A stretch of DNA of 64,000 bases from Escherichia phage vB_EcoM_EC001, in sequence record MN445185.1, one strand, 5' to 3'. The notes beneath the pieces are model-generated. The model did no database searches. It had not been told where the DNA came from and worked only from the letters and a program-made list of their open reading frames with translations. This document shows, piece by piece, positions 3,839-52,690 of this stretch. Numbering within the stretch: position 1 is the stretch's first letter; each line of letters opens with the position of its first letter. Position numbers and translations under genes: made by a program.

Positions 3839-3867
3839 ATTTCAGATATATATTACCTAGGTGATAG
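3839..3867 (+). promoter_or_regulatory. conserved promoter-like element, variant A (ATTTCAGATATATATTACYTAGGTGA)
   Basis: one of three near-identical ~80-bp copies (also 32871, 52661) ending in a conserved ribosome-binding site and ATG. Confidence 0.55.
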
Positions 3868-3915
3868 AAGACAATCTATCAACTCAATCGACTATTAATC
3901 TAAAGGAGTATTGCC

Positions 3916-4059
3916 ATGTTAACTCGTAACCATAAACGTGCCATCTTCGCCATCGTTGCTGTTGTTGCTTTCGCGGTATTGTCTATCACTGTAACTCAAG
4001 ATTACAACAAATGCATCGATAACGGTAACTCTGTTGCCATGTGTACAGGTCGCGGCTAA
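3916..4059 (+). CDS. small hydrophobic protein (47 aa, one predicted transmembrane helix)
   Basis: AAAGGAG ribosome-binding site 7 nt upstream of ATG; hydrophobic stretch AIFAIVAVVAFAVLSI; below ORF-track size cutoff. Confidence 0.45.
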   Translation: MLTRNHKRAIFAIVAVVAFAVLSITVTQDYNKCIDNGNSVAMCTGRG

Positions 4060-4241
4060 TGGACTTTTCTGATACGCAGTTTGCCGAGTTCTTATCTCAC
4101 CCGCGTGTTAAACGTGAGTGGGATAATCTCACTAACGGTGTTCGTCATCAGGACGAAGAAGAAATTGTTCACGTTACCGCGCAAGTCTTACTCGTCTCAC
4201 CGACAGGTAATGTGTTTCCAATGCAGCAGGAGATTTACTAA
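4059..4241 (+). CDS. hypothetical small protein
   Basis: ATG overlaps upstream stop (TAATG); ORF track 4041 start is an upstream GTG. Confidence 0.4.
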   Translation: MDFSDTQFAEFLSHPRVKREWDNLTNGVRHQDEEEIVHVTAQVLLVSPTGNVFPMQQEIY

Positions 4242-4429
4242 TGGGCGTTTTAGTTAATTACGATGGTAAAAACGGAATCGTGCTTCGCGAAGTGGAAGAT
4301 AACGAAACAGTAGAGGTGAATCCGCAAACCTCAGAACGTACGTTTATCGTGGGGCCGAAAAGCGCATTACCGAAGCCGGACTGGAAAGAAGAGCTGGCGA
4401 AGTTCCGTGGGGAACTCGGGAAGAAGTAG
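4241..4429 (+). CDS. hypothetical small protein
   Basis: 62-aa ORF, ATG overlaps upstream stop; followed by terminator. Confidence 0.45.
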   Translation: MGVLVNYDGKNGIVLREVEDNETVEVNPQTSERTFIVGPKSALPKPDWKEELAKFRGELGKK

Positions 4430-4442
4430 TATAGATAATTTA

Positions 4443-4470
4443 ATACCACCTACGGGTGGTATTATTTTTT
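4443..4470 (+). terminator. rho-independent terminator
   Basis: stem ATACCACC/GGTGGTAT, loop TACG, then TATTTTTT. Confidence 0.7.
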
Positions 4471-4487
4471 GCCTAAGGAACATGAAA

Positions 4488-4904
4488 ATGATTAATGAGA
4501 AGCTCCAAAAGTATTTAAAGAACGACACTGACTGGATGGTTCTTGACCAGTACGGACGATTTGTTCCGCTATCCAAGGATTCCCCTATACCCCGTGACAA
4601 GGCGATTTATATTCCTGACGGTAAGGGTGGCTATCGTTTCTGGGAAGGCCAGGAAGTAAAAGAGGAAATGTTCTACATGGAGCCGAAGTTCCGTGCAGCG
4701 TTCCCATCGAAAAATATTAACGGATATGTTTACAACGCAATTCCGCCAATCACGCATCCTAACTTTGAGGTTGTGAACTACCCCGCAACTGTTCTGGATT
4801 GGCAACGTGCCATTAGTGAACACTACACGATTCCGCTTGAAGGTGTTTACTTCCCATTCCGTGATATTAGTTTAGATGACTTTATTAACTCTCTTAAGGA
4901 CTAA
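4488..4904 (+). CDS. hypothetical protein
   Basis: AAGGA 8 nt upstream of ATG at 4488; ORF-track start 4407 would overlap the terminator. Confidence 0.6.
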   Translation: MINEKLQKYLKNDTDWMVLDQYGRFVPLSKDSPIPRDKAIYIPDGKGGYRFWEGQEVKEEMFYMEPKFRAAFPSKNINGYVYNAIPPITHPNFEVVNYPATVLDWQRAISEHYTIPLEGVYFPFRDISLDDFINSLKD

Positions 4905-4908
4905 AAAA

Positions 4909-5769
4909 ATGTACAGCATTACTGATTTTATCAAAAGTTCAGATTTCCCCCTACCTCCAGACCACGAAGTATTGGCTAGCGATCCGTTAACCGATGCGGC
5001 CATTGTCCAGCTGGACCGTGACAAACGTCGTACTTACGTCGTGTTGGTCGAAGGAAAGAGCTACGGCCTGTCTTCTTACGACCTGGAGCAGCAAGAGCGC
5101 TTCCTCGATGAAAACCGCAAAACGTCAATGTATAGCGCTATCTCGCGCGCGTTGTGCAAGGTAATGGCGACGATCACGGACAGCAAAAAGCGCGTCGCCG
5201 TGCTACAGGGTATCAATGCGCTAACGACCAAAATCCAACAACTTGAAGGTTTCCATTGCCCACGATTGGAAGCCGCACAGAAGGATGCTAAGGGTGATGA
5301 GGCCATGGTGCTGTTTGGAGGCAATACTGTCTTTGCAACAGCTGAAGCTTGTTATCTCACCTATCCAACCTTTAACTATACGCCAATCAGCGACACCGTA
5401 GACGGGATTAAAGTAGAGAACGTCGTGCAATGGGGTCGCGCAAATCTCAAGTTTGTGATGTCCCATGAAGAAGAAAATCAAGACGGCCTTGGCCAGAAGA
5501 TTCAACGTTGGTTCACGGCACGTTTGGACGCCGACTGGGAAGCGCATGTTAACGCACAGCTTCGTAAATTTCACGCGGTGGTCGCATTGTTAAAAGAAAA
5601 TACTCCTGCCCCGAAACAATCGAAGGCACCGGTGGTTGGCTGGACGTGTTCCGGCTGTAACCGCAACCATGTCGCCACAGTACCGAGAACCCATCGCTAC
5701 ACTTCGCAGACGATGAACATTGCTTGTCCGGCTTGCGGCAAGATCAACGAAGTTGATTATAAACCGTAG
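4909..5769 (+). CDS. hypothetical protein with C-terminal zinc-ribbon (CSGC...CPAC)
   Basis: AAGGA 8 nt upstream of ATG; four Cys in CxxC...CxxC arrangement at C-terminus. Confidence 0.6.
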   Translation: MYSITDFIKSSDFPLPPDHEVLASDPLTDAAIVQLDRDKRRTYVVLVEGKSYGLSSYDLEQQERFLDENRKTSMYSAISRALCKVMATITDSKKRVAVLQGINALTTKIQQLEGFHCPRLEAAQKDAKGDEAMVLFGGNTVFATAEACYLTYPTFNYTPISDTVDGIKVENVVQWGRANLKFVMSHEEENQDGLGQKIQRWFTARLDADWEAHVNAQLRKFHAVVALLKENTPAPKQSKAPVVGWTCSGCNRNHVATVPRTHRYTSQTMNIACPACGKINEVDYKP

Positions 5770-5774
5770 TAGTA

Positions 5775-5815
5775 CCCCCTCTTACCTTCGGGTAAGAGGG
5801 TTTTATATTTATTTT
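5775..5815 (+). terminator. rho-independent terminator (UUCG loop)
   Basis: stem CCCCTCTTACC/GGTAAGAGGG then TTTTATATTTATTTT; same stem reused at 32790. Confidence 0.8.
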
Positions 5816-5820
5816 CCGAA

Positions 5821-5857
5821 AAGAAAATAAAAGGCGCTCTCTCCCGAAGGAGAGAGC
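5821..5857 (-). terminator. rho-independent terminator on minus strand
   Basis: minus-strand reading GCTCTCTCC-TTCG-GGAGAGAGC followed by GCCTTTTATTTTCTTTT; convergent with the plus-strand terminator. Confidence 0.6.
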
Positions 5858-6175
5858 TTATTCACATCCACTTAGAGGTTAACATGAATACCTTTATGCA
5901 ACAACTGCGTCAGCAACAGCTGAAACAAGTCGCTTTTCAACAACGTCTGCAAGAGGTTACCCGCCAACCGCAGACTTCCACCCGTACCATTAAAGGACTA
6001 GGAGGTGAGATAATACTCAACAAGAGATAACATGAATATTTGCATGGACTAACTGTACCCGAGTGTTCACAGCACTCGGGTTATTCCATGCATATAAATA
6101 GTTCGTCGTATTTTTTTTTGATCTTGGCAGGACGCATAAACTGCCCGTAGGGGAGCTTAGGCTCCCCAGTGTTCG

Positions 6176-7738
6176 TTAGAACAAATCATCACCCATTCCA
6201 CCGGTGAAGAAGTTGATAGACGACGCTGTTACGGTTTCTTCTTTATCACAATCCCAAGGCAGGATGCCAACATCCTGGAAAGGTATCACTGTGTAGTGAT
6301 AAGATTCTTTAGTATCGATAATGGTGCGGTGCTTACCGCGTTGAACTTCTAAGAAGCTATGGCCGTTGACCACACGCTTGTTAAAATACATTTCACCATC
6401 GGCCTCGTTATCAAGGCTCGAACAACTATCGTAAAGACCACGACCAGGTAAGTTCTTACAGAAACCTACCGGGTCTAACGCTTTTAAGCGCTTACCTTCT
6501 GGGGAAATCTGGTGTGGGGCAATTAAGAACCCACGGTTGCGTACCACTTGGATGTTACGAGCAATACGATAAATTTCTTTGATATCACTCCCGGCAATAC
6601 CGTTGCCGTGTCCTGCTTTGCTGATTGTGCCTAAGTAGTCTGCGCGAATGCCAACAACATGATAACCGCGACGACGTAAGTCGAGAATAAGGTCGTTGAT
6701 GTAGTGCACTTTAAAATCGGAGTTGGTGTGCTTTTGGAAAACGTAGTCCCAACCGTTTGCGCGAATCTTACCACAGAGGTAATCAGACATTGCTGTTGTG
6801 TGTGCTAACTTCTCTTCAGCGGTTGCATCCTGTGCAATGGTCATCTGTGGAACTTGTCCTTCAAAATGACCGTACAGTGCTTGATAGCCGTAAGCTAAGT
6901 TAACGTCGAGTTCGTTTTCTAAACTCAAGTCAAGAATAATTGGTTGCAGTGTGCCCTTCACATCCGCCATTACTTTCTCAGGCGTGTTGAAGATAGGAAT
7001 CGACAAGCTCAGTAAGAGACTGAACAAAGACTTACAGTTAAAAGGTAACGCCGGCATTAGCCACAGTTCTTCGGTAATCCCTTTGTTACAACCGAGCATT
7101 TGGTTAATGGCTTTCCAGCCCGTCTGCAAACCATTACCTGCTGCTTTCTTGTTAATCGAGTCGAACACTTTAACAAACGGAGCCCGATTATCTGTAACCA
7201 GCTCACCGACCAGCGATGGAATCTTATTATGAGAGCGTTCACCGAACGTAGATAGCGCCTCTTTGAGTTCGAGCACTGCGGTGTTCAGATCAACACGTGT
7301 CTCAGTTCCATTCAATGCTCCGAACGCGCGACCCATTTTTGTTTTGAGTTCGACGCTCTGTAAACATTGACGTAATTGGAAATAATATTGAGACAGTTGT
7401 CGATTAAGATGCTCGGTACGTTTGTCTTCTTCCTCGGGCAAATCGTCTTCGAGGAATTTGGTAATCGTATCGTATAGAGGACGTACTTGAGTGGTGGCCA
7501 GCTTCAAGCGCTTCATAACGCTCGCGTGGTCGTATTCCATGCCGCCGTCTATGATAGATGTGATAATGTCCTTGATCTCGATGAGTGCAAAGCGCTCTTC
7601 GCCATCTTCCGCATATTCCGGAAGCTTGATCTGCATCAGAACTTTTCTTATGACATCATGATCCTTGCTAGGGTCCGTCAGCATAGATTCTGTATACAGT
7701 GCGGCTAAGGCGGTTATCAACATCATTTTACTATTCAT
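6176..7738 (-). CDS. hypothetical protein (520 aa), function unknown
   Basis: long minus-strand ORF; no recognisable catalytic motif. Confidence 0.65.
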   Translation of the reverse strand: MNSKMMLITALAALYTESMLTDPSKDHDVIRKVLMQIKLPEYAEDGEERFALIEIKDIITSIIDGGMEYDHASVMKRLKLATTQVRPLYDTITKFLEDDLPEEEDKRTEHLNRQLSQYYFQLRQCLQSVELKTKMGRAFGALNGTETRVDLNTAVLELKEALSTFGERSHNKIPSLVGELVTDNRAPFVKVFDSINKKAAGNGLQTGWKAINQMLGCNKGITEELWLMPALPFNCKSLFSLLLSLSIPIFNTPEKVMADVKGTLQPIILDLSLENELDVNLAYGYQALYGHFEGQVPQMTIAQDATAEEKLAHTTAMSDYLCGKIRANGWDYVFQKHTNSDFKVHYINDLILDLRRRGYHVVGIRADYLGTISKAGHGNGIAGSDIKEIYRIARNIQVVRNRGFLIAPHQISPEGKRLKALDPVGFCKNLPGRGLYDSCSSLDNEADGEMYFNKRVVNGHSFLEVQRGKHRTIIDTKESYHYTVIPFQDVGILPWDCDKEETVTASSINFFTGGMGDDLF

Positions 7739-7752
7739 GGAGCATCCTTAAA

Positions 7753-8277
7753 ATGCAAATTCGTTTTAGTCCACCGTGGGAAGTTCAATCTAACATAGAT
7801 AAAGGGGCTGGCGTTAAAAAGTTGGAGGAACTCCAAGCAAGCTTCTTTAACTGGTTATATGACTGCTCGTCGGGCTTTAGTTCCATCATACTGCCAGTGA
7901 GTGACCCTATTTCGATTTATAAATCGATTATGGCACCACCTGCACTTCCGACTCTTTATTATGACCAGGTCTTAAACCTGGTTGAGAAAGGTACGAATGA
8001 AACCCTTGCTGATTTATATGGGGAATCATTCGACGGTCGTTTACGTTGGGTGTTCTCACAACGTGGCGATGTTGTTGTGGCGTCTTTTGCAGAAGCTAAA
8101 TCCGGACCGGGTTTTTCTTTAAGTGAAGACCACGCTGCGAAAAAGATGTTCTGCGCAGAACTTTTTAAATATATGCGTCCCAAGACTCGTGTCGTGGATG
8201 ATACGTTCAGTACGTCGACGCAGTTTGCTGCGCACGAAGTGCTGACGCAGTTGTACGCATGTCATTTATCTAAATAA
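7753..8277 (+). CDS. hypothetical protein immediately upstream of the abundant structural gene
   Basis: ATG at 7753 in frame with ORF-track 7699 ORF; only 14 bp from the divergent minus-strand start. Confidence 0.45.
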   Translation: MQIRFSPPWEVQSNIDKGAGVKKLEELQASFFNWLYDCSSGFSSIILPVSDPISIYKSIMAPPALPTLYYDQVLNLVEKGTNETLADLYGESFDGRLRWVFSQRGDVVVASFAEAKSGPGFSLSEDHAAKKMFCAELFKYMRPKTRVVDDTFSTSTQFAAHEVLTQLYACHLSK

Positions 8278-8289
8278 GGTAAACTTGAA

Positions 8290-10590
8290 ATGAAAGATAC
8301 CCGTATCGCTAGTCTGGACCAGCTGGTTCAGCAGGGCAATGCTCTGGTCGCTGCTGCCAAGGCAGGCTCTTCCGCTAATGACGTATGGCAAACCGTAGCC
8401 GTTGGCGAATCTGTACGTAAAAATGCTGCCGGCTTCACCAACCTGCGTGACACTGCTCAGCAGCACTACGAAGCTGTAAACCCTGGCAAAACCATGAGCC
8501 ACGCTGCTCAGGTTGCTTCTGCGATGATTCTGGCTGCTGCCGGTCACGAAGACGACTTCATGACCCGTGTTGCTGCCGAGAGCGCGAAGCCGGAATACGC
8601 CAGCTACATGCCGATCGCTATTTCTGGTGCAGCATCTCTGGCTGCTGACTACGGTAAAACTCCGCTGGTCGCAACTGAATACTACACCAACAAAGACCTG
8701 GACAAAAACCTGGGTCTGACCTGGACGCTGAACGTGCGTGCTCTGGAAACTCAATCCAAGTTTGCAGAAACCCTGTTCCCGACCATCACTGTGGACACCA
8801 ACGACGTCGGCATCACCGTTCGTACCAAAGTTACTACTGTATCTCGTGGTATCCTGAACGCCCTGCTGACCAAAGACGTGGTTGAAGACAACCGTCAGCC
8901 GCTGCATAACGCGCTGTCTAACCACAAAGTCCTGCAGGACGATGCTATCCGTATCGTACCTTACGTGATGGAAACCGGTGAGAACGCGAAGTTCTTCGTA
9001 TCCGAAGACATCATCGAAAACGAAAACGTTCAGCTGGGTCGTGTGCCGGCGTATCCGACCAACTACCTGAGCTTCTCTGAACGTCGTCTGAACCTGTTCC
9101 AGCTGTCTGCCCATCCGGGTATCGTGCAGGAAGGTTACGATGAAACCGACGAAATCGCACCGGGTGCAGCGCTGGGTAGCCTGCTGCTGTCTGTGCGTAA
9201 GCCGACTGAAGAAGCGAAAGATGGCGCGCTGATCAAACTGAACGTACGCGACATGCAGTTCGCTACCTTCCAGCGTCCTCCTGAAGGTGATGGCCGTGAG
9301 CTGGTCCTGCAGTTCCGTCGCACTGTGTTCTCCCTGAACGCCAAGTCTCTGGACTGGAAAGGTGCTGAAATCCCGGCACTGGCCGCTCTGGCACAGAACG
9401 ATTACACCATTCGTTATTCCATGAACATCAGCATGTCTCTGTTCACCAACGGTCAGTTCTCTGGTCGTGTTGACGTGACTGCACCGTCTCTGGAAATCGA
9501 AGGTCTGTACGACGCAACTGGTACTGCTGTTGATATCGAAAGCGGCACCGGTAAAGTTATCATCGACAACCTGAAACTGGAGCTGCTGGGCTGGCGCTTC
9601 GACGGTACTCGTACCAACGAGAACCGGAGAACCCAGGGCCTTCTGCTCGACCCGATTTGGGAACAAGAGAACTACAAACTGCAGTACGGTTCTCCGATCA
9701 TGACCAAATCTCCGGTTGGCGTTGAATACGACGACACCGAACGTCTGGACGACCTCGTTTCTGCGGTTAACATCCGTAACGAAATGCTGGCTATCACTCA
9801 GACTCTGTCTTACACCGAAGCGGTTAAGAACGCAGCTGCGTCCATGATCACTCCGTGGGACAAACCTGCTATCCGCGGCCTGGGCCGTCACTGGGTTGCT
9901 CCGTGGTACAGCGAAAGCGACTACGAAGTGGACAAAGTGATCCAGTCTCTGGATACCAAAGATGCGCTCATCAACGCCCGTCAGGGTCTGGTACAGCGTA
10001 TCGGCGACCAGGTAACTCGTGCTATCCAGGATTCTCGTTTCATGCCGGCTCTGCGCCTGCTGACTGCGGACCCGAACGCACTGCCGAAAGTTGTTATCGC
10101 AACTGACGAACCGACTGCTGCAATGCTGCTGCTGGTTCAGGGTGACCAGCGTCTGCTGGGCGATCGCTACGAGTACGAAGTTATCACCACCAACGATGAC
10201 CGCTGGCGTGTGAAGAACGAAGCTGACGGCAGCTGGACTCGCCGCCTGCAGTGGGTTCTGAAAGTTCCAACCGCTGATGACGGTTCTTACTGTGTTCTGA
10301 ACTGGGGTAACCACTTCTGGTCTCCGATCATGGTAACCAACATCAACATCCAGCGTAACGGCGCTACCAGCAAAGAGCTGGCAGTACAGCCTCGTAACGC
10401 GCACATCTGCCACTGCCCGATCACTGGTCTGATCTGGATTAAAGGTATCACCAAGTTCGTGGAAGAGAAACTGGCGTTCAACGTCACTACTACTTCCAAC
10501 GGTACTGGCGGTACTAATGGCGGTAATGCGGGTGATGTTGGCGGCGGCGCTACCCAGCCAGGTACTGGCGGTGAAGGCGCTGGCGGCTAA
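8290..10590 (+). CDS. abundant virion structural protein, 766 aa; major capsid protein candidate (tail sheath not excluded)
   Basis: extreme bias to enterobacterial optimal codons (CTG, CGT, GGT, ACC, AAA); size in range of jumbo-phage capsid proteins; Gly-rich C-terminal tail; strong terminator after. Confidence 0.5.
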   Translation: MKDTRIASLDQLVQQGNALVAAAKAGSSANDVWQTVAVGESVRKNAAGFTNLRDTAQQHYEAVNPGKTMSHAAQVASAMILAAAGHEDDFMTRVAAESAKPEYASYMPIAISGAASLAADYGKTPLVATEYYTNKDLDKNLGLTWTLNVRALETQSKFAETLFPTITVDTNDVGITVRTKVTTVSRGILNALLTKDVVEDNRQPLHNALSNHKVLQDDAIRIVPYVMETGENAKFFVSEDIIENENVQLGRVPAYPTNYLSFSERRLNLFQLSAHPGIVQEGYDETDEIAPGAALGSLLLSVRKPTEEAKDGALIKLNVRDMQFATFQRPPEGDGRELVLQFRRTVFSLNAKSLDWKGAEIPALAALAQNDYTIRYSMNISMSLFTNGQFSGRVDVTAPSLEIEGLYDATGTAVDIESGTGKVIIDNLKLELLGWRFDGTRTNENRRTQGLLLDPIWEQENYKLQYGSPIMTKSPVGVEYDDTERLDDLVSAVNIRNEMLAITQTLSYTEAVKNAAASMITPWDKPAIRGLGRHWVAPWYSESDYEVDKVIQSLDTKDALINARQGLVQRIGDQVTRAIQDSRFMPALRLLTADPNALPKVVIATDEPTAAMLLLVQGDQRLLGDRYEYEVITTNDDRWRVKNEADGSWTRRLQWVLKVPTADDGSYCVLNWGNHFWSPIMVTNINIQRNGATSKELAVQPRNAHICHCPITGLIWIKGITKFVEEKLAFNVTTTSNGTGGTNGGNAGDVGGGATQPGTGGEGAGG

Positions 10591-10620
10591 TAATCCGTAA
10601 GGATTACGTTGCCTAAGATT

Positions 10621-10659
10621 AGCTTACTCCCTTCGGGGAGTAAGCTTTTTCTTTTTTTC
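10621..10659 (+). terminator. rho-independent terminator (UUCG loop)
   Basis: AGCTTACTCCC-TTCG-GGGAGTAAGCT then T-run. Confidence 0.85.
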
Positions 10660-10666
10660 TAAAAAT

Positions 10667-10694
10667 TTATAGATAGATATTATCTTAGGGAGAG
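10667..10694 (+). promoter_or_regulatory. conserved promoter-like element, variant B (ATAGATAGATATTATCTTAGGGAGA)
   Basis: shares core with 31176 copy; directly follows terminator. Confidence 0.5.
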
Positions 10695-10725
10695 AGTCAT
10701 TCGGTTTTAACTTAAGGAGACAGTA

Positions 10726-10809
10726 ATGGAAGTCAATTTAGAGAGATCAAGACTAGTTGCACCGATGTTTGATGGGCGCGGTTTTATGGCGAACGGTCAC
10801 CACGTTTGA
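10726..10809 (+). CDS. possible 27-aa micro-protein
   Basis: AAGGAGA ribosome-binding site 7 nt upstream of ATG; lies between two promoter-like copies. Confidence 0.25.
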   Translation: MEVNLERSRLVAPMFDGRGFMANGHHV

Positions 10810-10865
10810 TACCCTAAAGTTTTTTACGTTAAGGGCACTGGGTATGAACCCGTGCCCAAAGTAAT

Positions 10866-10890
10866 CTGAGATAGATATTATCTACGTGAA
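10866..10890 (+). promoter_or_regulatory. conserved promoter-like element, variant B
   Basis: CTGAGATAGATATTATCTACGTGAA. Confidence 0.45.
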
Positions 10891-10922
10891 TAATTCTTTT
10901 GGTATTATTACTGGGATGTTCA

Positions 10923-11927
10923 ATGAACCGTTATGATTTAGACGTTCAGCCAACGCTAACCCAGCGGCCCATGCACCGTGGTGCCGTGTCGAAGACTATC
11001 ACGTACGAAAATAATACCGGGTTTCCCATATACGTCACTGAACTCAGTGGCGGGCATTTTGTTTTAGCCCCGTCGTCCACCACAGCGGCGGAATTTGGGA
11101 TTGTGATTTACGTGACCTATACGGTGTTTGCGAACGGTGCTAACCTATCTGGTTTGCGCGACGCACATTCGCCAAAGCAGTATGCGCAGATATGTAAGGA
11201 ATTAACTACGAACGGCGAAACAACGCTGATGTATGTAGTTGATGATATCGGAGCGTTAATGCGAGGCGACTTGGTGGTGTTGAAGAAGCTAGGAATGGCT
11301 TTCTCTACCCAACCAGTAAAACTCGATTCTGAGGTTATTGGTAAGCCAGGAGGGGATCGTAAAGAATTTGCCTTGGGCGTGGTAGTTGTACAGAAGTACG
11401 AAGACCCAGCACCTTTAAAGTGGCTGAGGTTCTATACAACGATGTTGGAAGTCGAACCGATTCGATCGAAGTATTACGACGAGGGTATATACATGGTAAT
11501 CGGTGGTGCGGAGTGCGTCGAAGGGGGTAAGATGATAATGTACTCTTTCGATGACCCGATGTCCCCGTTCCGGGCGTTTGCATCTGAAGATGAAGCGAGG
11601 CGTTATCGGTGGCTCGATAACATTCCAGAGTTGCGAGATGTTCGTGCGAAGCTGGAAGCCACGTATCAGGCCAAGTTGCAAGATCTCGATGAGAAAAAGA
11701 ATCGGCAAGACCTCGATTATCGTACACAACTTAATAATCTGGCGCTAGAGAAGGAGAGGATTAACACCCTTAACACAATCCAGACGAATGAGCTTAAGTT
11801 GCGTTCCGATGTTCGTAAAGACCAATACGAGTCCCGAGCTTATCAGCGAAAAGATAGCTCGGAGTTCTTGAAATCCATTCCCGCGTATTTGGCTGCAGGG
11901 GTAGCACTCGTTGGGATGATTCTCTGA
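10923..11927 (+). CDS. hypothetical protein with coiled-coil region and C-terminal hydrophobic anchor
   Basis: ORF-track ORF begins at TTG 10899; first ATG at 10923; C-terminus IPAYLAAGVALVGMIL. Confidence 0.55.
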   Translation: MNRYDLDVQPTLTQRPMHRGAVSKTITYENNTGFPIYVTELSGGHFVLAPSSTTAAEFGIVIYVTYTVFANGANLSGLRDAHSPKQYAQICKELTTNGETTLMYVVDDIGALMRGDLVVLKKLGMAFSTQPVKLDSEVIGKPGGDRKEFALGVVVVQKYEDPAPLKWLRFYTTMLEVEPIRSKYYDEGIYMVIGGAECVEGGKMIMYSFDDPMSPFRAFASEDEARRYRWLDNIPELRDVRAKLEATYQAKLQDLDEKKNRQDLDYRTQLNNLALEKERINTLNTIQTNELKLRSDVRKDQYESRAYQRKDSSEFLKSIPAYLAAGVALVGMIL

Positions 11928-11938
11928 GGGAGGCCGGT

Positions 11939-13717
11939 GTGTTTAAAGATGCGATTAGGAAGATTAAAGAGGCAGGCGAAATAGTGCCTTTTAATCGTGC
12001 AATTGCAGAAGGAGTTGGGTACACACAAGCTAAAGACGGGATACATGATCGTGTGGCAACCATTCTACGTCGTGAGTTGACGTATGATGAAATCGATAAC
12101 CCGAAATTACCAGAAGGGTTAACGGTATTAGGTTGTCGCCAAATGTCGCCGTTTGAAGCTTTTATCTTTAAGTTATCGAAGTCGGATAACAATTCACGAA
12201 ATAATCGTGGCCGGTCAATTATTAACATCTCATCCACTGATACGTATATGGTAATGGCCTCGTTCCGAGTTCCAGGCGATCCTCGCCCGGTGCAACGACC
12301 AATGAGCTTACCATTTATTCGTCGTGGCGGCTTAATGAACTACTACGGTACAACGTACCACGTAGCACCTGTAATCCACCAACCTGGTATTTGTCGTGAG
12401 CACGGTGGTATCTTTATTAACTTTGACTTCACCCGCAAGGTGTCTATCAAGTTCTGTAAGAAACCAACGAAGATTCTGGTGAATGGTCGCCCTGAGCAGC
12501 TGTTCTTGCCAGGTACATCGAATCTGTTTGTCTCAACCGGACAGATTGGACACGACACCGATGAGAAGCCGTTGATGTATTGGCTCTTCGGGCGCTACGG
12601 CTTTAAACAAGCTGTGAAGCGTTATGCGGGTGTTGATGTGGCGATTTGGCCAGCGATTAAAGTACGTGATGTGGACTTAACGAAGTATGTGGTGATTCAG
12701 TCCGGTGAGCCACAACTCGCGAAGACCATCCAGTACGTACTGTTGGTTAAACGTGAAGATATGCCTAACACCGATGCAGGGCGTTGGGATCAGAATGAAC
12801 ATCTGTTGCTGGTAGCGACTGCCGCATTCTTCAAAGCAGCGCACTACTACGCAGGTAAACAGAACAGTAAGAACGGTCGTGCACCAACACTGCCGGGGCT
12901 GTTTACACAGATTAACGAAATGGCAATGGACGAAGATATTGCGAACCTCAATTCTGCAGCCTCCTGGCGCGAAGTGTTGGGTCGTAGTATTCGCGGACTG
13001 AAGCCTTCGGATATCGAACTGAGTCGCAGTATGGACAGCCACTTCCAGGAATGTGAACGCTATGTCAACAGCACCTTCCGTGGTGAGCTGATGGCAAACG
13101 ATCCGTCCATCCCTGATGATTTGGATATGTTTGATTTCCTCTGGTACACCACGCAGCTGATGGTGCGTACTCGTCTTACCAAACAAGATGATATTCCGTC
13201 TATGTACGGAAAACGTCTCACGGTAACCGATTACTTACTGTTGGGCCAACGTGGCTTTACCACAACGATCTCGAAAATACGTTGGAAGCTGGGGCAGTTG
13301 GAACATCGGACTCCAGAGACAGCGGCGAAGTCTATTCGAGACGCACTGAACAAACAGATCGTGCTCAATCTGGTGATGCGCACCATTACGAGCAACGGCG
13401 GTATCAGTTTCTTCAATGCCTCTACAGAATCAATGGTATTGGCAGTGTCTACGCACGCCATCGGTCAAACCGAAACCGATGCTAAGCGTTCGAAGAAAGG
13501 AGGCAAGACCGTTAACTTGAACGACCGTACTAAGCACGCATCTGCGTCGCATCTGGAATGTGGTAACGTCTACTATATTCCTAAGTCGGCACCGTTTAAG
13601 GCAAACATCCTCAACCCGTACATGAAGACCAACCCAAGTTTGGTAATGATGCGGAACCCTAAACTGGACCCGTACATCAGACCGACCGAAGAAGACATTG
13701 CTAAAATCGGCCGCTAA
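11939..13717 (+). CDS. hypothetical protein (592 aa), likely virion or morphogenesis protein
   Basis: GTG start preceded by GGGAGG; lies between capsid-like and portal-like genes. Confidence 0.6.
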   Translation: MFKDAIRKIKEAGEIVPFNRAIAEGVGYTQAKDGIHDRVATILRRELTYDEIDNPKLPEGLTVLGCRQMSPFEAFIFKLSKSDNNSRNNRGRSIINISSTDTYMVMASFRVPGDPRPVQRPMSLPFIRRGGLMNYYGTTYHVAPVIHQPGICREHGGIFINFDFTRKVSIKFCKKPTKILVNGRPEQLFLPGTSNLFVSTGQIGHDTDEKPLMYWLFGRYGFKQAVKRYAGVDVAIWPAIKVRDVDLTKYVVIQSGEPQLAKTIQYVLLVKREDMPNTDAGRWDQNEHLLLVATAAFFKAAHYYAGKQNSKNGRAPTLPGLFTQINEMAMDEDIANLNSAASWREVLGRSIRGLKPSDIELSRSMDSHFQECERYVNSTFRGELMANDPSIPDDLDMFDFLWYTTQLMVRTRLTKQDDIPSMYGKRLTVTDYLLLGQRGFTTTISKIRWKLGQLEHRTPETAAKSIRDALNKQIVLNLVMRTITSNGGISFFNASTESMVLAVSTHAIGQTETDAKRSKKGGKTVNLNDRTKHASASHLECGNVYYIPKSAPFKANILNPYMKTNPSLVMMRNPKLDPYIRPTEEDIAKIGR

Positions 13718-13748
13718 TTATTACATCTCTTAAGGAGTATTATTTACA

Positions 13749-15419: not shown

Positions 15420-15426
15420 GTAATAC

Positions 15427-15462
15427 GGAGACCTTCGGGTCTCCTATTATTATTTTTTATTC
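15427..15462 (+). terminator. rho-independent terminator (UUCG loop)
   Basis: GGAGACC-TTCG-GGTCTCC then TATTATTATTTTTTATT. Confidence 0.85.
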
Positions 15463-15484
15463 TATCATGAAAAGGAGTATTAAA

Positions 15485-15751: not shown

Positions 15752-15785
15752 TTATTATAGAGTAGCTCTATAATGAGGTTCGAGC

Positions 15786-16088: not shown

Positions 16089-16101
16089 AAAAAGAAAAGG
16101 T

Positions 16102-16150
16102 ACCTCTCCCCGAAGGGAGAGGTAAACCTTATTTCTTTTTCTTTTTTTGT
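16102..16150. terminator. bidirectional terminator between convergent genes
   Basis: ACCTCTCCC-CGAA-GGGAGAGGT flanked by A-run upstream and T-run downstream. Confidence 0.8.
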
Positions 16151-31136: not shown

Positions 31137-31175
31137 ACCCACTCCTTCGGGAGTGGGTCGACTCTATTTTTTTTG
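31137..31175 (+). terminator. rho-independent terminator (UUCG loop)
   Basis: ACCCACTCC-TTCG-GGAGTGGGT then T-run. Confidence 0.85.
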
Positions 31176-31200
31176 GATAGATGTTATCTTAGGGAGACGT
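31176..31200 (+). promoter_or_regulatory. conserved promoter-like element, variant B
   Basis: GGATAGATGTTATCTTAGGGAGACG immediately after terminator. Confidence 0.5.
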
Positions 31201-31291
31201 GCAAAAATTACGTTTCATCCTTAGCATATGCTAGAAGCCGTTGTGAGTCGGTTAAAACTCACCAACTTAAACTTAAAAGCGAGTAAACAAA

Positions 31292-32789: not shown

Positions 32790-32828
32790 CCCTCTTACCT
32801 TCGGGTAAGAGGGTATTGTCTTTTTTTA
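32790..32828 (+). terminator. rho-independent terminator (UUCG loop)
   Basis: CCCCTCTTACC-TTCG-GGTAAGAGGG then T-run; same stem as 5775. Confidence 0.85.
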
Positions 32829-32870
32829 CAGATCAGAACAGTCTTATGCTTTTTGCTTCCACTCCACTAA

Positions 32871-32899
32871 ATTTCAGATATATATTACTTAGGTGAGAG
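32871..32899 (+). promoter_or_regulatory. conserved promoter-like element, variant A
   Basis: ATTTCAGATATATATTACTTAGGTGAGAG; conserved downstream AATCGACTATTAATCTAAAAGGAGTATT. Confidence 0.55.
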
Positions 32900-32947
32900 T
32901 TACTACTAAACTCTCTAATCGACTATTAATCTAAAAGGAGTATTCTA

Positions 32948-39709: not shown

Positions 39710-39716
39710 CGCACGA

Positions 39717-39745
39717 CTTTTCAGATAGATGTTATTTTACTGAAC
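39717..39745 (+). promoter_or_regulatory. conserved promoter-like element, variant B
   Basis: TTTTCAGATAGATGTTATTTTACTGAACC; near-identical to 48116 copy. Confidence 0.5.
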
Positions 39746-43584: not shown

Positions 43585-43980
43585 GTGAAATTGATTATGC
43601 CTAAAACCGTTCCTAATCAGGATATGGTTACGACTACACTGTTTTCTGAATCATTACGCAACTCTGTACGTCAGACCGCTTCACGTCTAGACGTGGCAGT
43701 TGAAGAACTCGACCCAGAAGTCTTCATGAAGTATGCGTTTATTGCAGAAGGTTACGCGATCGCCCTGAGTTATGCGCGGTATGTCGATGACGTGACAGAA
43801 GCTAAACGTTATTTAGAAGGCTGTTGTCAAGTTTTCCGTGAAGAAATCACCGAGATGGAGATGGTTGACCGTGGCTTACCTGAATTTGTAAAGGTGGGTT
43901 ACGATAAGCTGTTGCAATCCATCGCGGATGAGATCAAACGTCGCGGGTTAACTGTTGTGCACAGTGCTACACTGCACTAA
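43585..43980 (+). CDS. hypothetical protein
   Basis: AGGAG then GTG; 131 aa. Confidence 0.5.
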   Translation: MKLIMPKTVPNQDMVTTTLFSESLRNSVRQTASRLDVAVEELDPEVFMKYAFIAEGYAIALSYARYVDDVTEAKRYLEGCCQVFREEITEMEMVDRGLPEFVKVGYDKLLQSIADEIKRRGLTVVHSATLH

Positions 43981-48077: not shown

Positions 48078-48118
48078 TACCAGCTATCCTTCGGGGTGGC
48101 TGGTACGCTTTATTTTAT
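48078..48118 (+). terminator. rho-independent terminator (UUCG loop)
   Basis: TACCAGC...GCTGGTA stem with inner TTCG then CGCTTTATTTTATTT. Confidence 0.75.
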
Positions 48119-48146
48119 TTCAGATAGATGTTATCTCAGTGAACCT
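48119..48146 (+). promoter_or_regulatory. conserved promoter-like element, variant B
   Basis: TTCAGATAGATGTTATCTCAGTGAACC. Confidence 0.5.
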
Positions 48147-48199
48147 CTGAAATTTACGTTTCAATCAGAGCTTATGTCATGTATTAAGGAGCACTTAAA

Positions 48200-50569: not shown

Positions 50570-50801
50570 CGACTATCAAACCGCAGATATGTTGCTACAG
50601 TCATTTGTACCGTTACGTGCTGAGTATTACGAAATCGCGTTCCTGGGCGATGAATATTGTGTCCGCACGCAAGGGCGTGAATACGAAGCAGTACGCGTTC
50701 CACGCACACTCGGTGGGGTGATGATGCTCATCGCTAATATCGAAGCACTCAATGCGAAATGTGCGTTATACATCGCACAGGGAGGCCGCAATGGATTTTA
50801 A
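50496..50801 (+). CDS. hypothetical protein (start uncertain)
   Basis: AAGGAG 6 nt upstream of in-frame GTG 50496; overlaps upstream gene by about 74 nt. Confidence 0.4.
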   Translation: MSISLRGLTIHEIQKYLLEGGKLTDDYQTADMLLQSFVPLRAEYYEIAFLGDEYCVRTQGREYEAVRVPRTLGGVMMLIANIEALNAKCALYIAQGGRNGF

Positions 50802-50866
50802 GTGGGAAGTGTTATCGTTAGCAGAAGTTCGTAACAGAATCGATAGAGCTATTGCAAGGAGAAAAC

Positions 50867-51268
50867 ATGTTCGGCCTGTTTCAGGAGAAAAAACAGTTGC
50901 GTCGCCAATTAGAAATACTGGAATTGGAACTCAGCCTATCAAAGACTGAGTTGGAAATTTCGAAAGAAGCGTGGAAAAGAAATCTTGATGAATCTTTCGA
51001 AGAACGCCGTAAGCTTACACGACTACTTTCTGAGGAACAGTCTAAGAACCGGAAACTCGAAGATGAGCTACGAGATGCCCGACGAGATGCGGATCTGCGT
51101 GACAAGATGTTAGGACGGAACCTGGGTGCCCTAATCTATTTCATAGAGCAACGTTGGGAACCAAAAACACTCCTTGAGTTGCTCTATGAAAAACTCTCCT
51201 GTGTAGGTAAACGTTCTGCGGCCATCGAGTATTTCCGTAGTCACGGTTTCGAGGTAAAAGATGAGTAA
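50867..51268 (+). CDS. coiled-coil protein
   Basis: AGGAGAAAAC then ATG; heptad-like charged sequence ELELSLSKTELEISKEAWKRNLDES. Confidence 0.5.
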   Translation: MFGLFQEKKQLRRQLEILELELSLSKTELEISKEAWKRNLDESFEERRKLTRLLSEEQSKNRKLEDELRDARRDADLRDKMLGRNLGALIYFIEQRWEPKTLLELLYEKLSCVGKRSAAIEYFRSHGFEVKDE

Positions 51269-51346
51269 ATTAGAGGTTGGCAGGCTGTTCGTTAATCCTT
51301 AAAAAACAACAGTTTCAAATTAGTTACGACCATAAGGAGTATTAAA

Positions 51347-52150
51347 ATGTTAAAGCCACGCAAACAGAAAAGATTACAGTTTGTCAAAATAGTACATCCA
51401 CAGTCCCGTCGTGTTACAGGTGGACGTCTCTACGTGGGTAAACACCGTAGTCGTCTTATCACCTGGTCGGCAATGGCCAACGTAGCCACCCAACTCCAGG
51501 CAATGGTTGAAGACCGTTGCCAGTTAAAAGGGGATTTCTTTCAAGAGAAGAAACCCTATCGTGATATCTTCCGTACACTAAAAGCGTGCTGGGTACTCAG
51601 CTGGGTGCCTGGCCGCGAACAACTTTATTTTCTGCGTAAGTTCCCACGCCCTATGCCGAAGGAAAACATTAGCGTTTTCTTAGACAAACTAAAACGCTTT
51701 AATGACATCGGCATAAACGCTAATAAAGAGCAGGTTTCTGCTACAGTAGCAGCCCGAAAACACTTACGCGATTATGTGGCCGATCGAGATGTTGAGTTCG
51801 CTTATATGACGCCGACTGTACCGCTGCTAAACGGTGATGCATCGAAAGCGAAGATGGAAGAGATCGCGTTGAAGTTTCCTAACATCAGACACATCGCACC
51901 AGACGCGGTACTACAGCTGAACACTGAAGGCTGCACGCGTTTACCGACAGTCTCTGACACGGTGTTAGTATCAACACCTGATGTTCCTGATGGAAAGTCG
52001 TTCCTTGAAATGATAAAGAAACGTACAGAGGGTGGATATCAACCGATCTTTCTGGATTCCCTTTCACAACATCCTGAAGTAGAACAAGAATTTAACATGA
52101 ACACTAACAGCCCTTACGACTCCCTATACAAGGACGATAATGATGCTTAA
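51347..52150 (+). CDS. hypothetical protein
   Basis: AAGGAG ribosome-binding site; 267 aa. Confidence 0.55.
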   Translation: MLKPRKQKRLQFVKIVHPQSRRVTGGRLYVGKHRSRLITWSAMANVATQLQAMVEDRCQLKGDFFQEKKPYRDIFRTLKACWVLSWVPGREQLYFLRKFPRPMPKENISVFLDKLKRFNDIGINANKEQVSATVAARKHLRDYVADRDVEFAYMTPTVPLLNGDASKAKMEEIALKFPNIRHIAPDAVLQLNTEGCTRLPTVSDTVLVSTPDVPDGKSFLEMIKKRTEGGYQPIFLDSLSQHPEVEQEFNMNTNSPYDSLYKDDNDA

Positions 52151-52532
52151 GCCTAAGAAACGTAAAGATGGTGCGGTCATTTTCTCTCCGAGAATCGCTG
52201 TAGCAGTTGGTAAGAAATTACTGGTCCAGGACGGTAAGTGGGTCAGTGACGGATTCAGTCAGTACACCTCGCTATGCATCTCTTCCGAGATGAATCAGAT
52301 GCACGGGAAGAAAGTACGTGACCGACGATCTCAGATGCCAAAAGTTATCCGTGTTGTGGCCGGCTGGTATAAGCGATACATGAAAAAGAACTTCCCACAC
52401 GCAGCGCCGCCGTTTGAAGAAGGGTCTTTTGTTCGTACAGAACCCACCGAAGCGGGTGGCGAATTACCGGTGCGTACCGGCACGGCGTATTCGACGCTGA
52501 CTTCCTTGTGTCGTCAGTCGTACGAAAAGTAG
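52140..52532 (+). CDS. hypothetical basic protein
   Basis: 130-aa ORF. Confidence 0.5.
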   Translation: MMLKPKKRKDGAVIFSPRIAVAVGKKLLVQDGKWVSDGFSQYTSLCISSEMNQMHGKKVRDRRSQMPKVIRVVAGWYKRYMKKNFPHAAPPFEEGSFVRTEPTEAGGELPVRTGTAYSTLTSLCRQSYEK

Positions 52533-52604
52533 AAGGCGTTGAAGGACACTCTACTCCACATCAACTAGGATGACGCTTATCCCAAGGGTAGCGAATAAAG
52601 CAGT

Positions 52605-52641
52605 ACCCTACTCCTTCGGGAGTAGGGTTTCTTCTTTTTTG
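52605..52641 (+). terminator. rho-independent terminator (UUCG loop)
   Basis: ACCCTACTCC-TTCG-GGAGTAGGGT then T-run. Confidence 0.85.
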
Positions 52642-52660
52642 CCTAGTCCGATTACAATTA

Positions 52661-52690
52661 TTTTCAGATATATATTACTTAGGTGAGAGT
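52661..52690 (+). promoter_or_regulatory. conserved promoter-like element, variant A
   Basis: TTTTCAGATATATATTACTTAGGTGAGAG with conserved leader AATCGACCATTATCTTAAGGAG. Confidence 0.55.

What the first reader, a model, noticed from the sequence alone, without database searches (positions are those of the whole stretch)
3839..52690. Eight copies of a conserved promoter-like element placed immediately after terminators
Copies at 3839, 10667, 10866, 31176, 32871, 39717, 48119 and 52661 share the core CAGATA(T/G)AT(A/G)TTA(C/T). Variant A (three copies) is conserved over about 80 bp including the leader AATCGAC(T/C)ATTA..TCT.AAGGAG; variant B has two subtypes (GATAGATATTATCTTAGGGAGA and CAGATAGATGTTATYTYAGTGAACC). 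Each sits 0-40 bp after a rho-independent terminator and 40-110 bp before a start codon, giving insulated terminator-promoter cassettes. Variant A contains TATATTAC, which I recall as the early-promoter core reported for phiKZ-like jumbo phages, implying transcription by a phage RNA polymerase. Two different terminators (5775, 32790) also share an identical stem.
Basis: partly seen in the sequence, partly recalled or inferred. Interest (0 to 1): 0.55.

Follow-up and report, generated by a model that had tools for sequence, protein, structure and literature searches.

The report
Early promoters of a jumbo phage
The eight repeats are real and are most likely the early-gene promoters read by the RNA polymerase that this SPN3US-like giant phage carries in its virion: a known kind of signal, here with a few add-ons I found no description of.

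Summary
The window is a Seoulvirus (SPN3US-like, phiKZ-related) jumbo phage segment. All eight copies exist, all on the + strand and all in front of genes. A weight-matrix scan finds exactly these eight and nothing in between. The extended consensus AAAAA-TTTC-AGATA(G/T)AT(A/G)TTA(T/C)-N4-GTGA matches published predicted early promoters of phages OBP and N1M2 and contains the phiKZ/201phi2-1 core TATATTAC. In SPN3US the motif occurs 22 times, all on the + strand. No site has an annotated virion gene as its next gene, and three sit before non-virion RNA polymerase subunit genes. Sites and their A/B class are kept at orthologous positions in SPAsTU, Asesino and CR5 while flanks diverge.

The terminator claim is overstated: a canonical terminator lies within 62 nt upstream of only 5 of 8 copies.

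Extras:
- Variant A is a module of promoter, a 5' hairpin that covaries between copies, and a box AATCGACYATTA before the ribosome-binding site. The box flanks variable genes in a relative.
- A second, spacing-specific motif TTAC(G/A)-N14-T(A/G)TG is probably the middle-type promoter of the non-virion polymerase. It explains the conserved variant-B leaders.

No transcription start data exist for this phage group.

The parts
3831..3864 (+). Early-type promoter, class A (A-tract, TTTC, AGATATATATTAC, N4, GTGA); precedes three small genes starting at 3916
10658..10691 (+). Early-type promoter, class B, directly after the major capsid gene terminator; drives only a 28-aa ORF (10726-10812)
10856..10889 (+). 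Early-type promoter, class B; precedes gp76-gp77 (non-virion RNA polymerase beta-N)-gp78
31162..31195 (+). Early-type promoter, class B; weakest copy (TGGATAGATGTTAT, 23.8 bits). No early-motif hit at the orthologous position in Asesino
32863..32896 (+). Early-type promoter, class A; precedes the HTH DNA-binding protein gene at 32948
39710..39743 (+). Early-type promoter, class B; no terminator upstream
48109..48142 (+). Early-type promoter, class B, directly after the tail-protein gene terminator
52653..52686 (+). Early-type promoter, class A
10621..10646 (+). Intrinsic terminator stem (TTCG loop, T-run follows), 24 nt before the promoter core at 10671
31137..31158 (+). Intrinsic terminator stem, 16 nt before the core at 31175
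32790..32813 (+). Intrinsic terminator stem, 62 nt before the core at 32876; identical 24-mer to 5777-5800
48078..48105 (+). Intrinsic terminator stem, 16 nt before the core at 48122
52605..52628 (+). Intrinsic terminator stem, 37 nt before the core at 52666
5777..5800 (+). Terminator with the same stem as 32790-32813; not followed by an early-type promoter
3862..3881 (+). Class A leader hairpin (TGATAGA / TCTATCA), predicted to lie at the very 5' end of the transcript
32895..32915 (+). Class A leader hairpin (GAGAGTT / AACTCTC)
52683..52707 (+). Class A leader hairpin (GTGAGAGTTAA / TTAACTCTTAT, with G-U pairs)
3886..3897 (+). Box AATCGACTATTA before the ribosome-binding site AAGGAG
32917..32928 (+). 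Box AATCGACTATTA before the ribosome-binding site
52710..52721 (+). Box AATCGACCATTA before the ribosome-binding site
10824..10846 (+). Second-class motif TTACG-N14-TATG, 45 nt upstream of the early-type core at 10869
31208..31230 (+). Second-class motif TTACG-N14-TATG inside the leader of the 31175 copy; this is the conserved 'variant B leader'
32826..32848 (+). Second-class motif TTACA-N14-TATG between terminator 32790 and the early-type core at 32876
48154..48176 (+). Second-class motif TTACG-N14-TATG inside the leader of the 48122 copy
11939..13717 (+). [quoted passage not shown]

Best explanation
The eight elements are the early promoters of a SPN3US-like (Seoulvirus) phiKZ-related jumbo phage.

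Inferred mechanism. The multisubunit RNA polymerase packaged in the virion and injected with the DNA recognises a roughly 40-bp signal with three blocks: an A-tract near -30, TTTC near -20, and AGATA(G/T)AT(A/G)TTA(T/C) around -10. It starts at or next to the conserved GTG, 5-7 nt after the core. It then transcribes short blocks of mostly uncharacterised non-structural genes and the genes of the second, non-virion polymerase.

Terminators of the preceding late or middle units lie just upstream of most copies, so early units start cleanly between other units.

Two sub-classes exist.
- Class A (TATATATTAC) is a roughly 90-bp module in which the transcript would begin with a stem-loop, followed by AATCGACYATTA and a strong ribosome-binding site.
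- Class B (AGATAGATRTTAT) lacks both.

Four copies are paired within 50 nt with a second motif, TTAC(G/A)-N14-T(A/G)TG. This is probably a promoter of the non-virion polymerase that keeps those genes on after the early phase.

What is shown: the sequence pattern, its distribution, its conservation and its match to published consensus sequences. What is inferred: promoter activity, the start site, the timing and which polymerase reads it.
For: Identity of the genome. The window aligns without indels to Escherichia phage Lh1B 64001-128000 and is 96-98% identical to SPN3US.

The motif in the window. Five exact copies against 0.01 expected. Eight sites are cleanly separated by the weight matrix. 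AGATAGAT and ATATTATC are the top intergenic 8-mers that are not terminator T-runs or CTTCGG loops.

The motif in SPN3US. There are 22 sites, all on the + strand. No first downstream gene is annotated as a virion protein. Sites precede non-virion polymerase genes: 28969 before gp34/35, 15614 before the operon holding an annotated polymerase beta gene, and 72684 (window 10869) before gp76-gp77.

Conservation. Sites and their A/B class are kept at orthologous positions in SPAsTU, Asesino and CR5 while flanks diverge. In Asesino there are 13 sites in 146 kb, all on the + strand.

Match to published consensus sequences (PMC7058600 Table 2):
- N1M2: TBYAWWWWWTTTCARRYAKATATTATYWAAGTGWA
- OBP: BSHAWWWWWTTTYARRYAKATATTATYWWADTG
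- 201phi2-1: ...TATATTACDWHDGTG
- phiKZ: TATATTAC

phiKZ itself has 7 TATATTAC-N5-TG in its first 50 kb, all on the + strand and intergenic.

Literature on the class. Early motifs of polymerase-encoding jumbo phages are AT-rich, centred near -10, and validated by transcript mapping in phiKZ, AR9 and phiR1-37 (PMC7598289). In phiKZ and 201phi2-1 the -10, -20 and -30 regions are conserved and early promoters precede hypothetical genes (PMC11512511). The SPN3US virion polymerase is head-associated (PMC5105663).
Against: - No 5'-end mapping, timing data or rifampicin test for any Seoulvirus was found. The SPN3US proteomic time-course paper is not held.
- One copy (10671) drives only a 28-aa ORF.
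- The 31175 copy is weak, and no early-motif hit was found at the orthologous position in Asesino.
- In 201phi2-1 not all non-virion polymerase genes have a nearby early promoter, so that argument is supportive rather than decisive.
- As of 2017 no virion polymerase of this family had been purified (PMC5312081), so direct recognition has not been shown for any member I could read about.
Confidence: 0.85

Rival explanations
1. They are promoters for the host sigma-70 RNA polymerase, as for the early genes of T4 or T7.
For: The core contains TATTAT or TATTAC, which resembles a -10 hexamer. The sigma-70 scan flags one overlapping weak site at 10866-10894 (9 of 12 matches).
Against: There is no -35-like hexamer at 16-18 nt. 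Of the three sites in the scanned 1-20,000 stretch, only one is flagged, and the total number of sigma-70-like hits there equals the shuffle expectation (19 against 21). Conservation extends over about 40 nt, including positions that are irrelevant to sigma-70. The same consensus occurs in phages of Pseudomonas, Klebsiella, Erwinia and Cronobacter. phiKZ development does not depend on host polymerase.
Confidence: 0.04
2. They are promoters of the non-virion (middle/late) phage polymerase rather than of the virion polymerase.
For: Both polymerases are phage-encoded. Sequence alone cannot assign the enzyme. Some phiKZ-family genes are expressed continuously.
Against: The motif matches the early consensus, not the (-3)TATG(+1) late signature. 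It precedes genes of the non-virion polymerase itself. No annotated virion structural gene is the first gene after a site. A separate motif ending in TRTG is a better candidate for the non-virion enzyme.
Confidence: 0.07
3. They are primarily binding sites for a phage regulator, or recombination sites of mobile gene cassettes, and not start signals.
For: Variable genes in SPAsTU are bounded by the promoter cores, the leader boxes and terminators. An HTH protein gene follows one copy.
Against: The strict co-orientation with genes, the fixed distance to start codons, the three-block -30/-20/-10 layout and the identity with motifs validated as promoters in relatives are all explained by promoter function. 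A role in cassette exchange would be a by-product of repetition, not an alternative to promoter function.
Confidence: 0.04

Closest known systems
Early promoters of phiKZ and 201phi2-1, read by the virion multisubunit RNA polymerase
   Same: Shares the TATATTAC core (class A), the conserved blocks near -10, -20 and -30, and TG 6-7 nt after the core. Placement is the same: in front of small uncharacterised genes, scattered between late genes, and often right after intrinsic terminators.
   Different: Here the core is extended to AGATA(G/T)AT(A/G)TTA(T/C). Most copies (class B) have TTAT instead of TTAC. Start sites are not mapped.
Predicted early promoters of Pseudomonas phage OBP and Klebsiella phage N1M2 (PMC7058600 Table 2)
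   Same: The consensus is nearly identical across about 35 nt: A-WWWWW-TTTCA-RR-YAKATATTAT-YWAAGTG. Like this motif, they are bioinformatic predictions placed at the start of early operons, including before a polymerase beta subunit gene.
   Different: The phage genera and hosts differ. The split into two co-varying sub-classes, and the class A leader module, are not mentioned in the passages I read.
AR9 early promoters and AR9 genes carrying both early and late promoters
   Same: An AT-rich early motif near -10 was predicted first and then confirmed by 5'-end mapping. Some genes carry two promoter classes in tandem and are expressed continuously.
   Different: AR9 has uracil-containing DNA and a different consensus.
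PeSL cassettes of T4-type phages (early promoter plus stem-loop flanking variable ORFs; Arbiol et al. 2010, cited from memory, not checked here)
   Same: Repeated regulatory modules bound variable early genes. In SPAsTU the extra genes sit exactly between repeated promoter, leader-box or terminator elements.
   Different: PeSL promoters are read by host sigma-70 polymerase. No recombination products were examined here.
phiKZ non-virion polymerase promoters: late (-3)TATG(+1), and middle with a motif near -22
   Same: The second motif found here ends in T(A/G)TG. Its upstream half, TTAC(G/A), lies at -23 to -19 if the final G is +1.
   Different: In phiKZ no upstream consensus is recognised for late promoters, and middle and late promoters are said not to be predictable from sequence. 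Here a fixed 14-nt spacing makes the motif predictable.

Membership tests
phiKZ-family early promoters (virion RNA polymerase) | Highly conserved AT-rich core of about 10 nt matching the family consensus (TATATTAC / YAKATATTAT) | tested here: met
   Core AGATA(G/T)AT(A/G)TTA(T/C); published strings; phiKZ genome scan.
phiKZ-family early promoters (virion RNA polymerase) | Additional conserved blocks near -20 and -30 | tested here: met
   TTTC and an A-tract are conserved upstream of the core (information profile). The numbering assumes a start at the conserved GTG.
phiKZ-family early promoters (virion RNA polymerase) | Located upstream of and co-oriented with early operons, including non-virion polymerase genes, and not in front of virion genes | tested here: met
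   22 of 22 SPN3US sites and 13 of 13 Asesino sites are on the + strand. No first downstream gene is annotated as virion. Sites lie before gp34/35 and gp76-77. Early timing of these genes is itself inferred.
phiKZ-family early promoters (virion RNA polymerase) | The phage packages a multisubunit RNA polymerase in its virion | tested here: met
   Several polymerase beta-type genes are annotated in SPN3US. Head association of gp42/218/240/241/244 was shown by mass spectrometry (PMC5105663). This applies to the close relative, not to the window's own isolate.
phiKZ-family early promoters (virion RNA polymerase) | Primary 5' ends about 7-10 nt downstream of the core; transcription early, independent of new protein synthesis and resistant to rifampicin | not testable with these tools
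   No transcript data for Seoulvirus were found in the library.
Bacterial sigma-70 promoters | TTGACA-like -35 and TATAAT-like -10 hexamers spaced 16-18 nt | tested here: not met
   Of the three sites in the scanned 1-20,000 stretch, only one overlaps a weak 9-of-12 hit. The hit count equals the shuffle expectation. Positions upstream of the core are A-tract/TTTC.
T7/SP6-type single-subunit polymerase promoters | About 23-bp conserved promoter, and a single-subunit RNA polymerase gene in the phage | tested here: not met
   'TTAGGGAGA' and 'TTAGGTGA' look T7/SP6-like. However, the SPN3US annotation lists only multisubunit beta-type polymerase genes, and the upstream part does not resemble T7 or SP6. 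Absence was judged from annotation only.
N4 virion polymerase hairpin promoters | A DNA hairpin upstream of the start site is the recognition element | tested here: not met
   The hairpin occurs only in class A, lies downstream of the core, and contains G-U pairs that work only in the sense RNA. The N4 features are recalled from general knowledge.
Intrinsic (rho-independent) terminators upstream of each copy | GC-rich stem-loop followed by a T-run on the same strand, shortly before the promoter | tested here: inconclusive
   Met for 5 of 8 copies (16-62 nt upstream). Not met for 3844, 10869 and 39723.
PeSL-like mobile regulatory cassettes | Repeated promoter/stem-loop modules at the borders of genes that vary between related phages | tested here: inconclusive
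   Four indel or replacement events between the window and SPAsTU have borders at promoter cores, leader boxes or terminators. The sample is small and no recombination intermediates were examined.

The most novel reading that the evidence does not exclude
Beyond the known early promoter, Seoulvirus, Erskinevirus and CR5-type phages may carry two features I found no description of.

(a) A sequence-predictable promoter of the non-virion polymerase, TTAC(G/A)-N14-T(A/G)TG. It joins the TATG start signature to an upstream element at a fixed distance. This would give a handle on what specifies these promoters beyond four bases.

(b) A portable early-gene module made of the class A promoter, a 5'-terminal stem-loop that covaries between copies, and the box AATCGACYATTA before the ribosome-binding site. 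Its repeated parts would serve as junctions for gain and loss of early genes.
Probability: 0.4. Interest if true: 0.55.

Novelty: new member of a known kind. Interest (0 to 1): 0.35.

Why it matters
On its own the finding is a correct rediscovery. It lets early transcription units of SPN3US-like phages be annotated from sequence, and this group is used as a genetic model and in phage therapy.

The by-products matter more. A spacing-specific second motif could help explain how the non-virion polymerase chooses promoters; for phiKZ the structural paper calls this promoter poorly defined. The class A leader module suggests how early transcripts are protected and translated, and how early genes are exchanged between relatives. 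Both are cheap to test with one 5'-end sequencing experiment.

Tried and rejected
- Host sigma-70 promoters: rejected (and the layout of the motif).
- T7/SP6-like promoter, suggested by TTAGGGAGA and TTAGGTGA: rejected, because only multisubunit polymerase genes are annotated.
- Known RNA family in the leaders: none in Rfam at gathering thresholds.
- Thermodynamic support for the class A hairpins: weak. Whole-leader z-scores are only -0.4 to -1.3. The case rests on position and compensatory changes, not on energy.
- Literature: no Seoulvirus transcriptome or promoter paper was found. Ceyssens 2014, Lavysh 2016 and Weintraub 2019 are not held. I therefore could not check whether the SPN3US logo was already printed in Lavysh 2016, which the review cites for 'each jumbo phage'.
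- A full-text search for TATATTAC gave only unrelated papers among the 20 of 463 hits listed.
- Function of the box AATCGACYATTA: I considered a second promoter, a sigma-70 -10 element and a late TATG start. None fits the sequences, so it remains unexplained.
- The 2-mismatch hits at 19093 and 58669, and all minus-strand hits, lie in coding sequence, score at background level, and were dropped.


Full report
WHAT THE WINDOW IS

The 64 kb aligns without indels to Escherichia phage vB_EcoM_Lh1B (OK428535.1) positions 64001-128000. Over the first 49 kb compared there are 2.6% substitutions, some of them against N in the record. The window is 96-98% identical to Salmonella phage SPN3US and its relatives, genus Seoulvirus. 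These are phiKZ-related, nucleus-forming jumbo phages with two multisubunit RNA polymerases. One is packaged in the head: SPN3US gp42, gp218, gp240, gp241 and gp244, shown by mass spectrometry of mutants. The other is non-virion and includes gp34/35 and gp77 (PMC5105663).

THE OBSERVATION

The pattern CAGATAKATRTTAY has 5 exact matches, against 0.01 expected. The other three copies carry 1-2 mismatches. All eight are on the + strand and lie in gaps between genes.

A weight matrix built from the SPN3US sites scores the eight at 24-51 bits. The next-best position in the window scores 9, and shuffled sequence reaches 3-19. The matrix contains the orthologues of these eight, so the scores are partly circular. 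What the scan adds is that there are no further copies. The generic repeat finder returns the same families (D2, D3, D6). In an unbiased count of words enriched between SPN3US genes, AGATAGAT and ATATTATC rank directly behind terminator T-runs and CTTCGG loops.

The extended consensus is AAaaaaTTTC-AGATAGATATTAT-CTa.GTGAg.

Distances from core start to start codon are 49-117 nt.

The terminator part of the claim is only partly right.
- Canonical stems with a T-run end 16, 16, 24, 37 and 62 nt upstream of five copies.
- The copy at 3844 has a hairpin without a T-run on this strand, and a real terminator 139 nt upstream.
- The copy at 10869 has a hairpin without a T-run.
- The copy at 39723 has neither.

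At least a dozen strong + strand terminators in the window are not followed by this element. The two terminators at 5777 and 32790 do share an identical 24-nt stem-loop.

GENOME-WIDE PICTURE AND CONSERVATION

In the complete SPN3US genome, AGATAKATRTTAY with at most one mismatch occurs 22 times, all on the + strand. Twenty lie between genes. One lies at the 3' end of a gene, and one lies 280 nt inside the 3' part of a gene that is followed by another gene (annotation).

None of the first downstream genes is annotated as a virion protein. Most are small hypothetical proteins, as are the window's (PHROGs). Three sites lie upstream of non-virion polymerase genes:
- 28969, directly before gp34/35.
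- 15614, before the operon that holds an annotated polymerase beta gene.
- 72684 (window 10869), before gp76-gp77-gp78.

The window ORF 11939-13717 matches PHIKZ123, a subunit of the solved phiKZ non-virion polymerase (7ogp_E, E = 3e-20). [quoted passage not shown]

The sites are kept at orthologous positions in progressively more distant relatives, while the surrounding non-coding sequence changes. The relatives are SPAsTU (70-83% identity across aligned blocks), Erwinia phage Asesino (64-80%) and Cronobacter phage CR5 (65-76%). In 146 kb of Asesino there are 13 sites, all on the + strand. All are at positions that correspond to SPN3US sites and carry the same A or B type.

COMPARISON WITH WHAT IS KNOWN

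A review states that a conserved AT-rich motif of about 10 nt, centred near -10, can be found by sequence analysis upstream of presumed early operons in every polymerase-encoding jumbo phage. Wherever transcripts were mapped (phiKZ, AR9, phiR1-37) it proved to be the early promoter, read by the virion polymerase (PMC7598289). For phiKZ and 201phi2-1 the -10, -20 and -30 regions are conserved, and early promoters precede hypothetical genes (PMC11512511).

Published strings are listed in PMC7058600, Table 2:
- phiKZ: TATATTAC
- 201phi2-1: TTAWTAVAA_HYWTTTRARR_BTATATTACDWHDGTG
- OBP: BSHAWWWWWTTTYARRYAKATATTATYWWADTG
- N1M2: TBYAWWWWWTTTCARRYAKATATTATYWAAGTGWA

The window's consensus fits the OBP/N1M2 string almost base for base, and class A carries the phiKZ core. 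I checked phiKZ directly. Its first 50 kb holds 7 TATATTAC, all on the + strand, all intergenic, all preceded by an A-rich/TTT context and all followed by N5-TG. One lies upstream of PHIKZ054, which is reported to have an early promoter.

By the same token the element is a member of a known class. Whether the SPN3US logo itself has been printed (Lavysh et al. 2016, cited by the review) I could not check, because the paper is not held.

MECHANISM

Inferred by analogy: the injected virion polymerase binds the three-block signal and starts at or next to the conserved GTG, 5-7 nt after the core. This places TATATTAC at about -14 to -7. Upstream terminators end the preceding transcription units, so early units are separate from their neighbours. 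None of this is measured for Seoulvirus.

TWO SUB-CLASSES

Positions 6 and 13 of the core co-vary. Class A has T...C (AGATATATATTAC) and class B has G...T (AGATAGATRTTAT).

Class A is always followed by YTAGGTGAG and a stem-loop.
- 14 of 16 class A copies, taken from the window, SPN3US, SPAsTU, Asesino and CR5, have a perfect stem of at least 6 bp starting 4-13 nt (typically 6) after the core.
- The same is true of 6 of 21 class B copies and of 19% of random genome positions.
- The stems differ in sequence between copies (TGATAGA, GAGAGTT, AGATGAG, GAGATTGC, GAGCGTTA, GAGATTC, GAGAGA, GAGATA, GAATAAC), and each has its own complement.
- The mean own-stem length is 7.5 bp, against 3.9 bp when arms are swapped between copies. 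Only 4% of swapped pairs reach the own-stem length. Seven of 105 pairs are G-U, which fits a structure in the sense RNA.
- Stability is modest: -6.6 to -9.3 kcal/mol, and whole-leader z-scores of -0.4 to -1.3.

With the predicted start, the stem would sit at the very 5' end of the transcript. There a stem-loop is known to slow 5'-end-dependent decay in E. coli (Emory, Bouvet and Belasco 1992, cited from memory). That function is a proposal.

After the stem comes AATCGACYATTA, then 2-6 nt, then TAAGGAGTATT and the start codon. The box occurs 9 times in SPN3US with at most one mismatch. Eight of these lie within about 30 nt upstream of a start codon on the + strand. Some are before second or later genes with no promoter nearby (57146, 224197, 166644). 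The box therefore belongs to the translation start region, not to the promoter. Its function is unknown.

VARIABLE GENES AT THE MODULE BORDERS

Comparing the window with SPAsTU shows gene gains, losses and replacements that begin or end at these elements.
- Three genes lie between the two promoters after the capsid gene. In the window those promoters are 198 nt apart and enclose only a 28-aa ORF.
- A different gene lies between the core at 31175 and the terminator at 32063.
- One extra gene lies behind each of two class A leaders. In both cases the box and ribosome-binding site are present in front of the extra gene and again in front of the conserved gene.

This resembles the promoter/stem-loop cassettes of T4-type phages (from memory). 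The sample is four events.

A SECOND MOTIF

Many terminators without the early motif are followed by T-run-TTAC(G/A), then 14 nt, then T(A/G)TG.
- In the window, TTACG-N14-TRTG occurs 8 times against 1.3 expected, all on the + strand.
- With TTAC(G/A) there are 11 on the + strand and none on the - strand at spacing 14, against 0-2 per strand at spacings 10-18.
- Nine of the 11 lie 24-100 nt before a start codon.
- In SPN3US there are 35 at spacing 14, against 3-7 at other spacings. Twenty of these have a ribosome-binding site and an ORF within 70 nt, most often 24-40 nt.
- In Asesino there are 11 + 2 at spacing 14, against 1-5 (both strands) elsewhere. Both half-sites are kept at orthologous places and the spacers have diverged. 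CR5 has examples at orthologous places.

If the final G is +1, the upstream half lies at -23 to -19. phiKZ late promoters are defined by (-3)TATG(+1) with no recognised upstream consensus. phiKZ middle promoters have a weak motif near -22 to -24. The review states that middle and late promoters cannot be predicted from sequence.

Downstream genes here are non-structural: thymidylate kinase, an acetyltransferase, an SMC-like protein and a ribonuclease. I therefore read the motif as a middle-type promoter of the non-virion polymerase.

The motif also explains features of the finding. The conserved leaders of the copies at 31175 and 48122 (AAATTTACGTTTCA...TATG) are this motif. The copies at 10869 and 32876 have one 45-50 nt upstream. 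Four of eight early promoters are thus paired with the second class, as in the AR9 genes that carry both early and late promoters.

VERDICT

The element is a new member of a known kind. Interest is moderate to low for the finding itself. It is somewhat higher for the by-products, all of which a single 5'-end mapping experiment would test.

Noticed in passing
window 2822-2844, 10824-10846, 23777-23799, 31208-31230, 32098-32120, 32826-32848, 34704-34726, 39045-39067, 48154-48176 (plus intragenic 2447-2469 and 43752-43774): Spacing-specific bipartite motif TTAC(G/A)-N14-T(A/G)TG, + strand only, usually right after a terminator T-run and 24-100 nt before a start codon. It is enriched only at spacing 14 in the window, SPN3US and Asesino. 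It is kept at orthologous sites in SPAsTU, Asesino and CR5 with diverged spacers. Probably a middle-type promoter of the non-virion polymerase.
   Followed up: partly
window 3862-3881, 32895-32915, 52683-52707; also copies in L002-L006, L008-L010: Class A copies are followed by a stem-loop whose sequence differs between copies while pairing is kept. It is present in 14 of 16 class A copies, against 19% of random positions. It would sit at the 5' end of the transcript. Its stability is modest.
   Followed up: partly
window 3886-3897, 32917-32928, 52710-52721; SPN3US 57146, 166644, 167592, 224197; SPAsTU (L008) 14856, 15332, 45781, 46260 region: Box AATCGACYATTA lies 2-6 nt before TAAGGAGTATT and the start codon, including in front of genes with no promoter nearby. 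In SPAsTU it flanks both sides of two extra genes. Function unknown; it could be a translation signal and/or a junction for gene exchange.
   Followed up: partly
window 10726-10812: An unannotated 28-aa ORF with a good ribosome-binding site is all that lies between the two promoters after the capsid gene. SPAsTU has three genes there and Asesino has one. It is likely the remnant of a deleted cassette.
   Followed up: partly
window 33704-34243: Perfect 270-nt tandem duplication (two copies, 100% identical) in frame inside gene 33738-34664 (308 aa). The SPN3US orthologue is 218 aa. In the Lh1B record the two copies differ at 22 positions.
   Followed up: partly
window 1-49000 versus L001: Over the first 49 kb compared, the window and the Lh1B record align position for position without a single indel, yet differ at 2.6% of sites, and the record contains N. 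This is unusual for independent assemblies. One record may be a reference-guided consensus of the other lineage.
   Followed up: no
SPN3US (L005) 165687-165790 and 167506-167620: Two early-type promoters outside the window have a terminator-like hairpin with a T-run inside the leader, between the 5' stem and the box. These could be attenuators or sources of short 5'-UTR RNAs, as reported for 201phi2-1.
   Followed up: no
window 5777-5800 and 32790-32813; SPN3US about 180990: The terminator stem-loop CCCTCTTACCTTCGGGTAAGAGGG recurs identically at least three times in the genome. Terminators 31137 and 52605 are also 90% alike. Terminators, like the promoters, form repeat families.
   Followed up: partly
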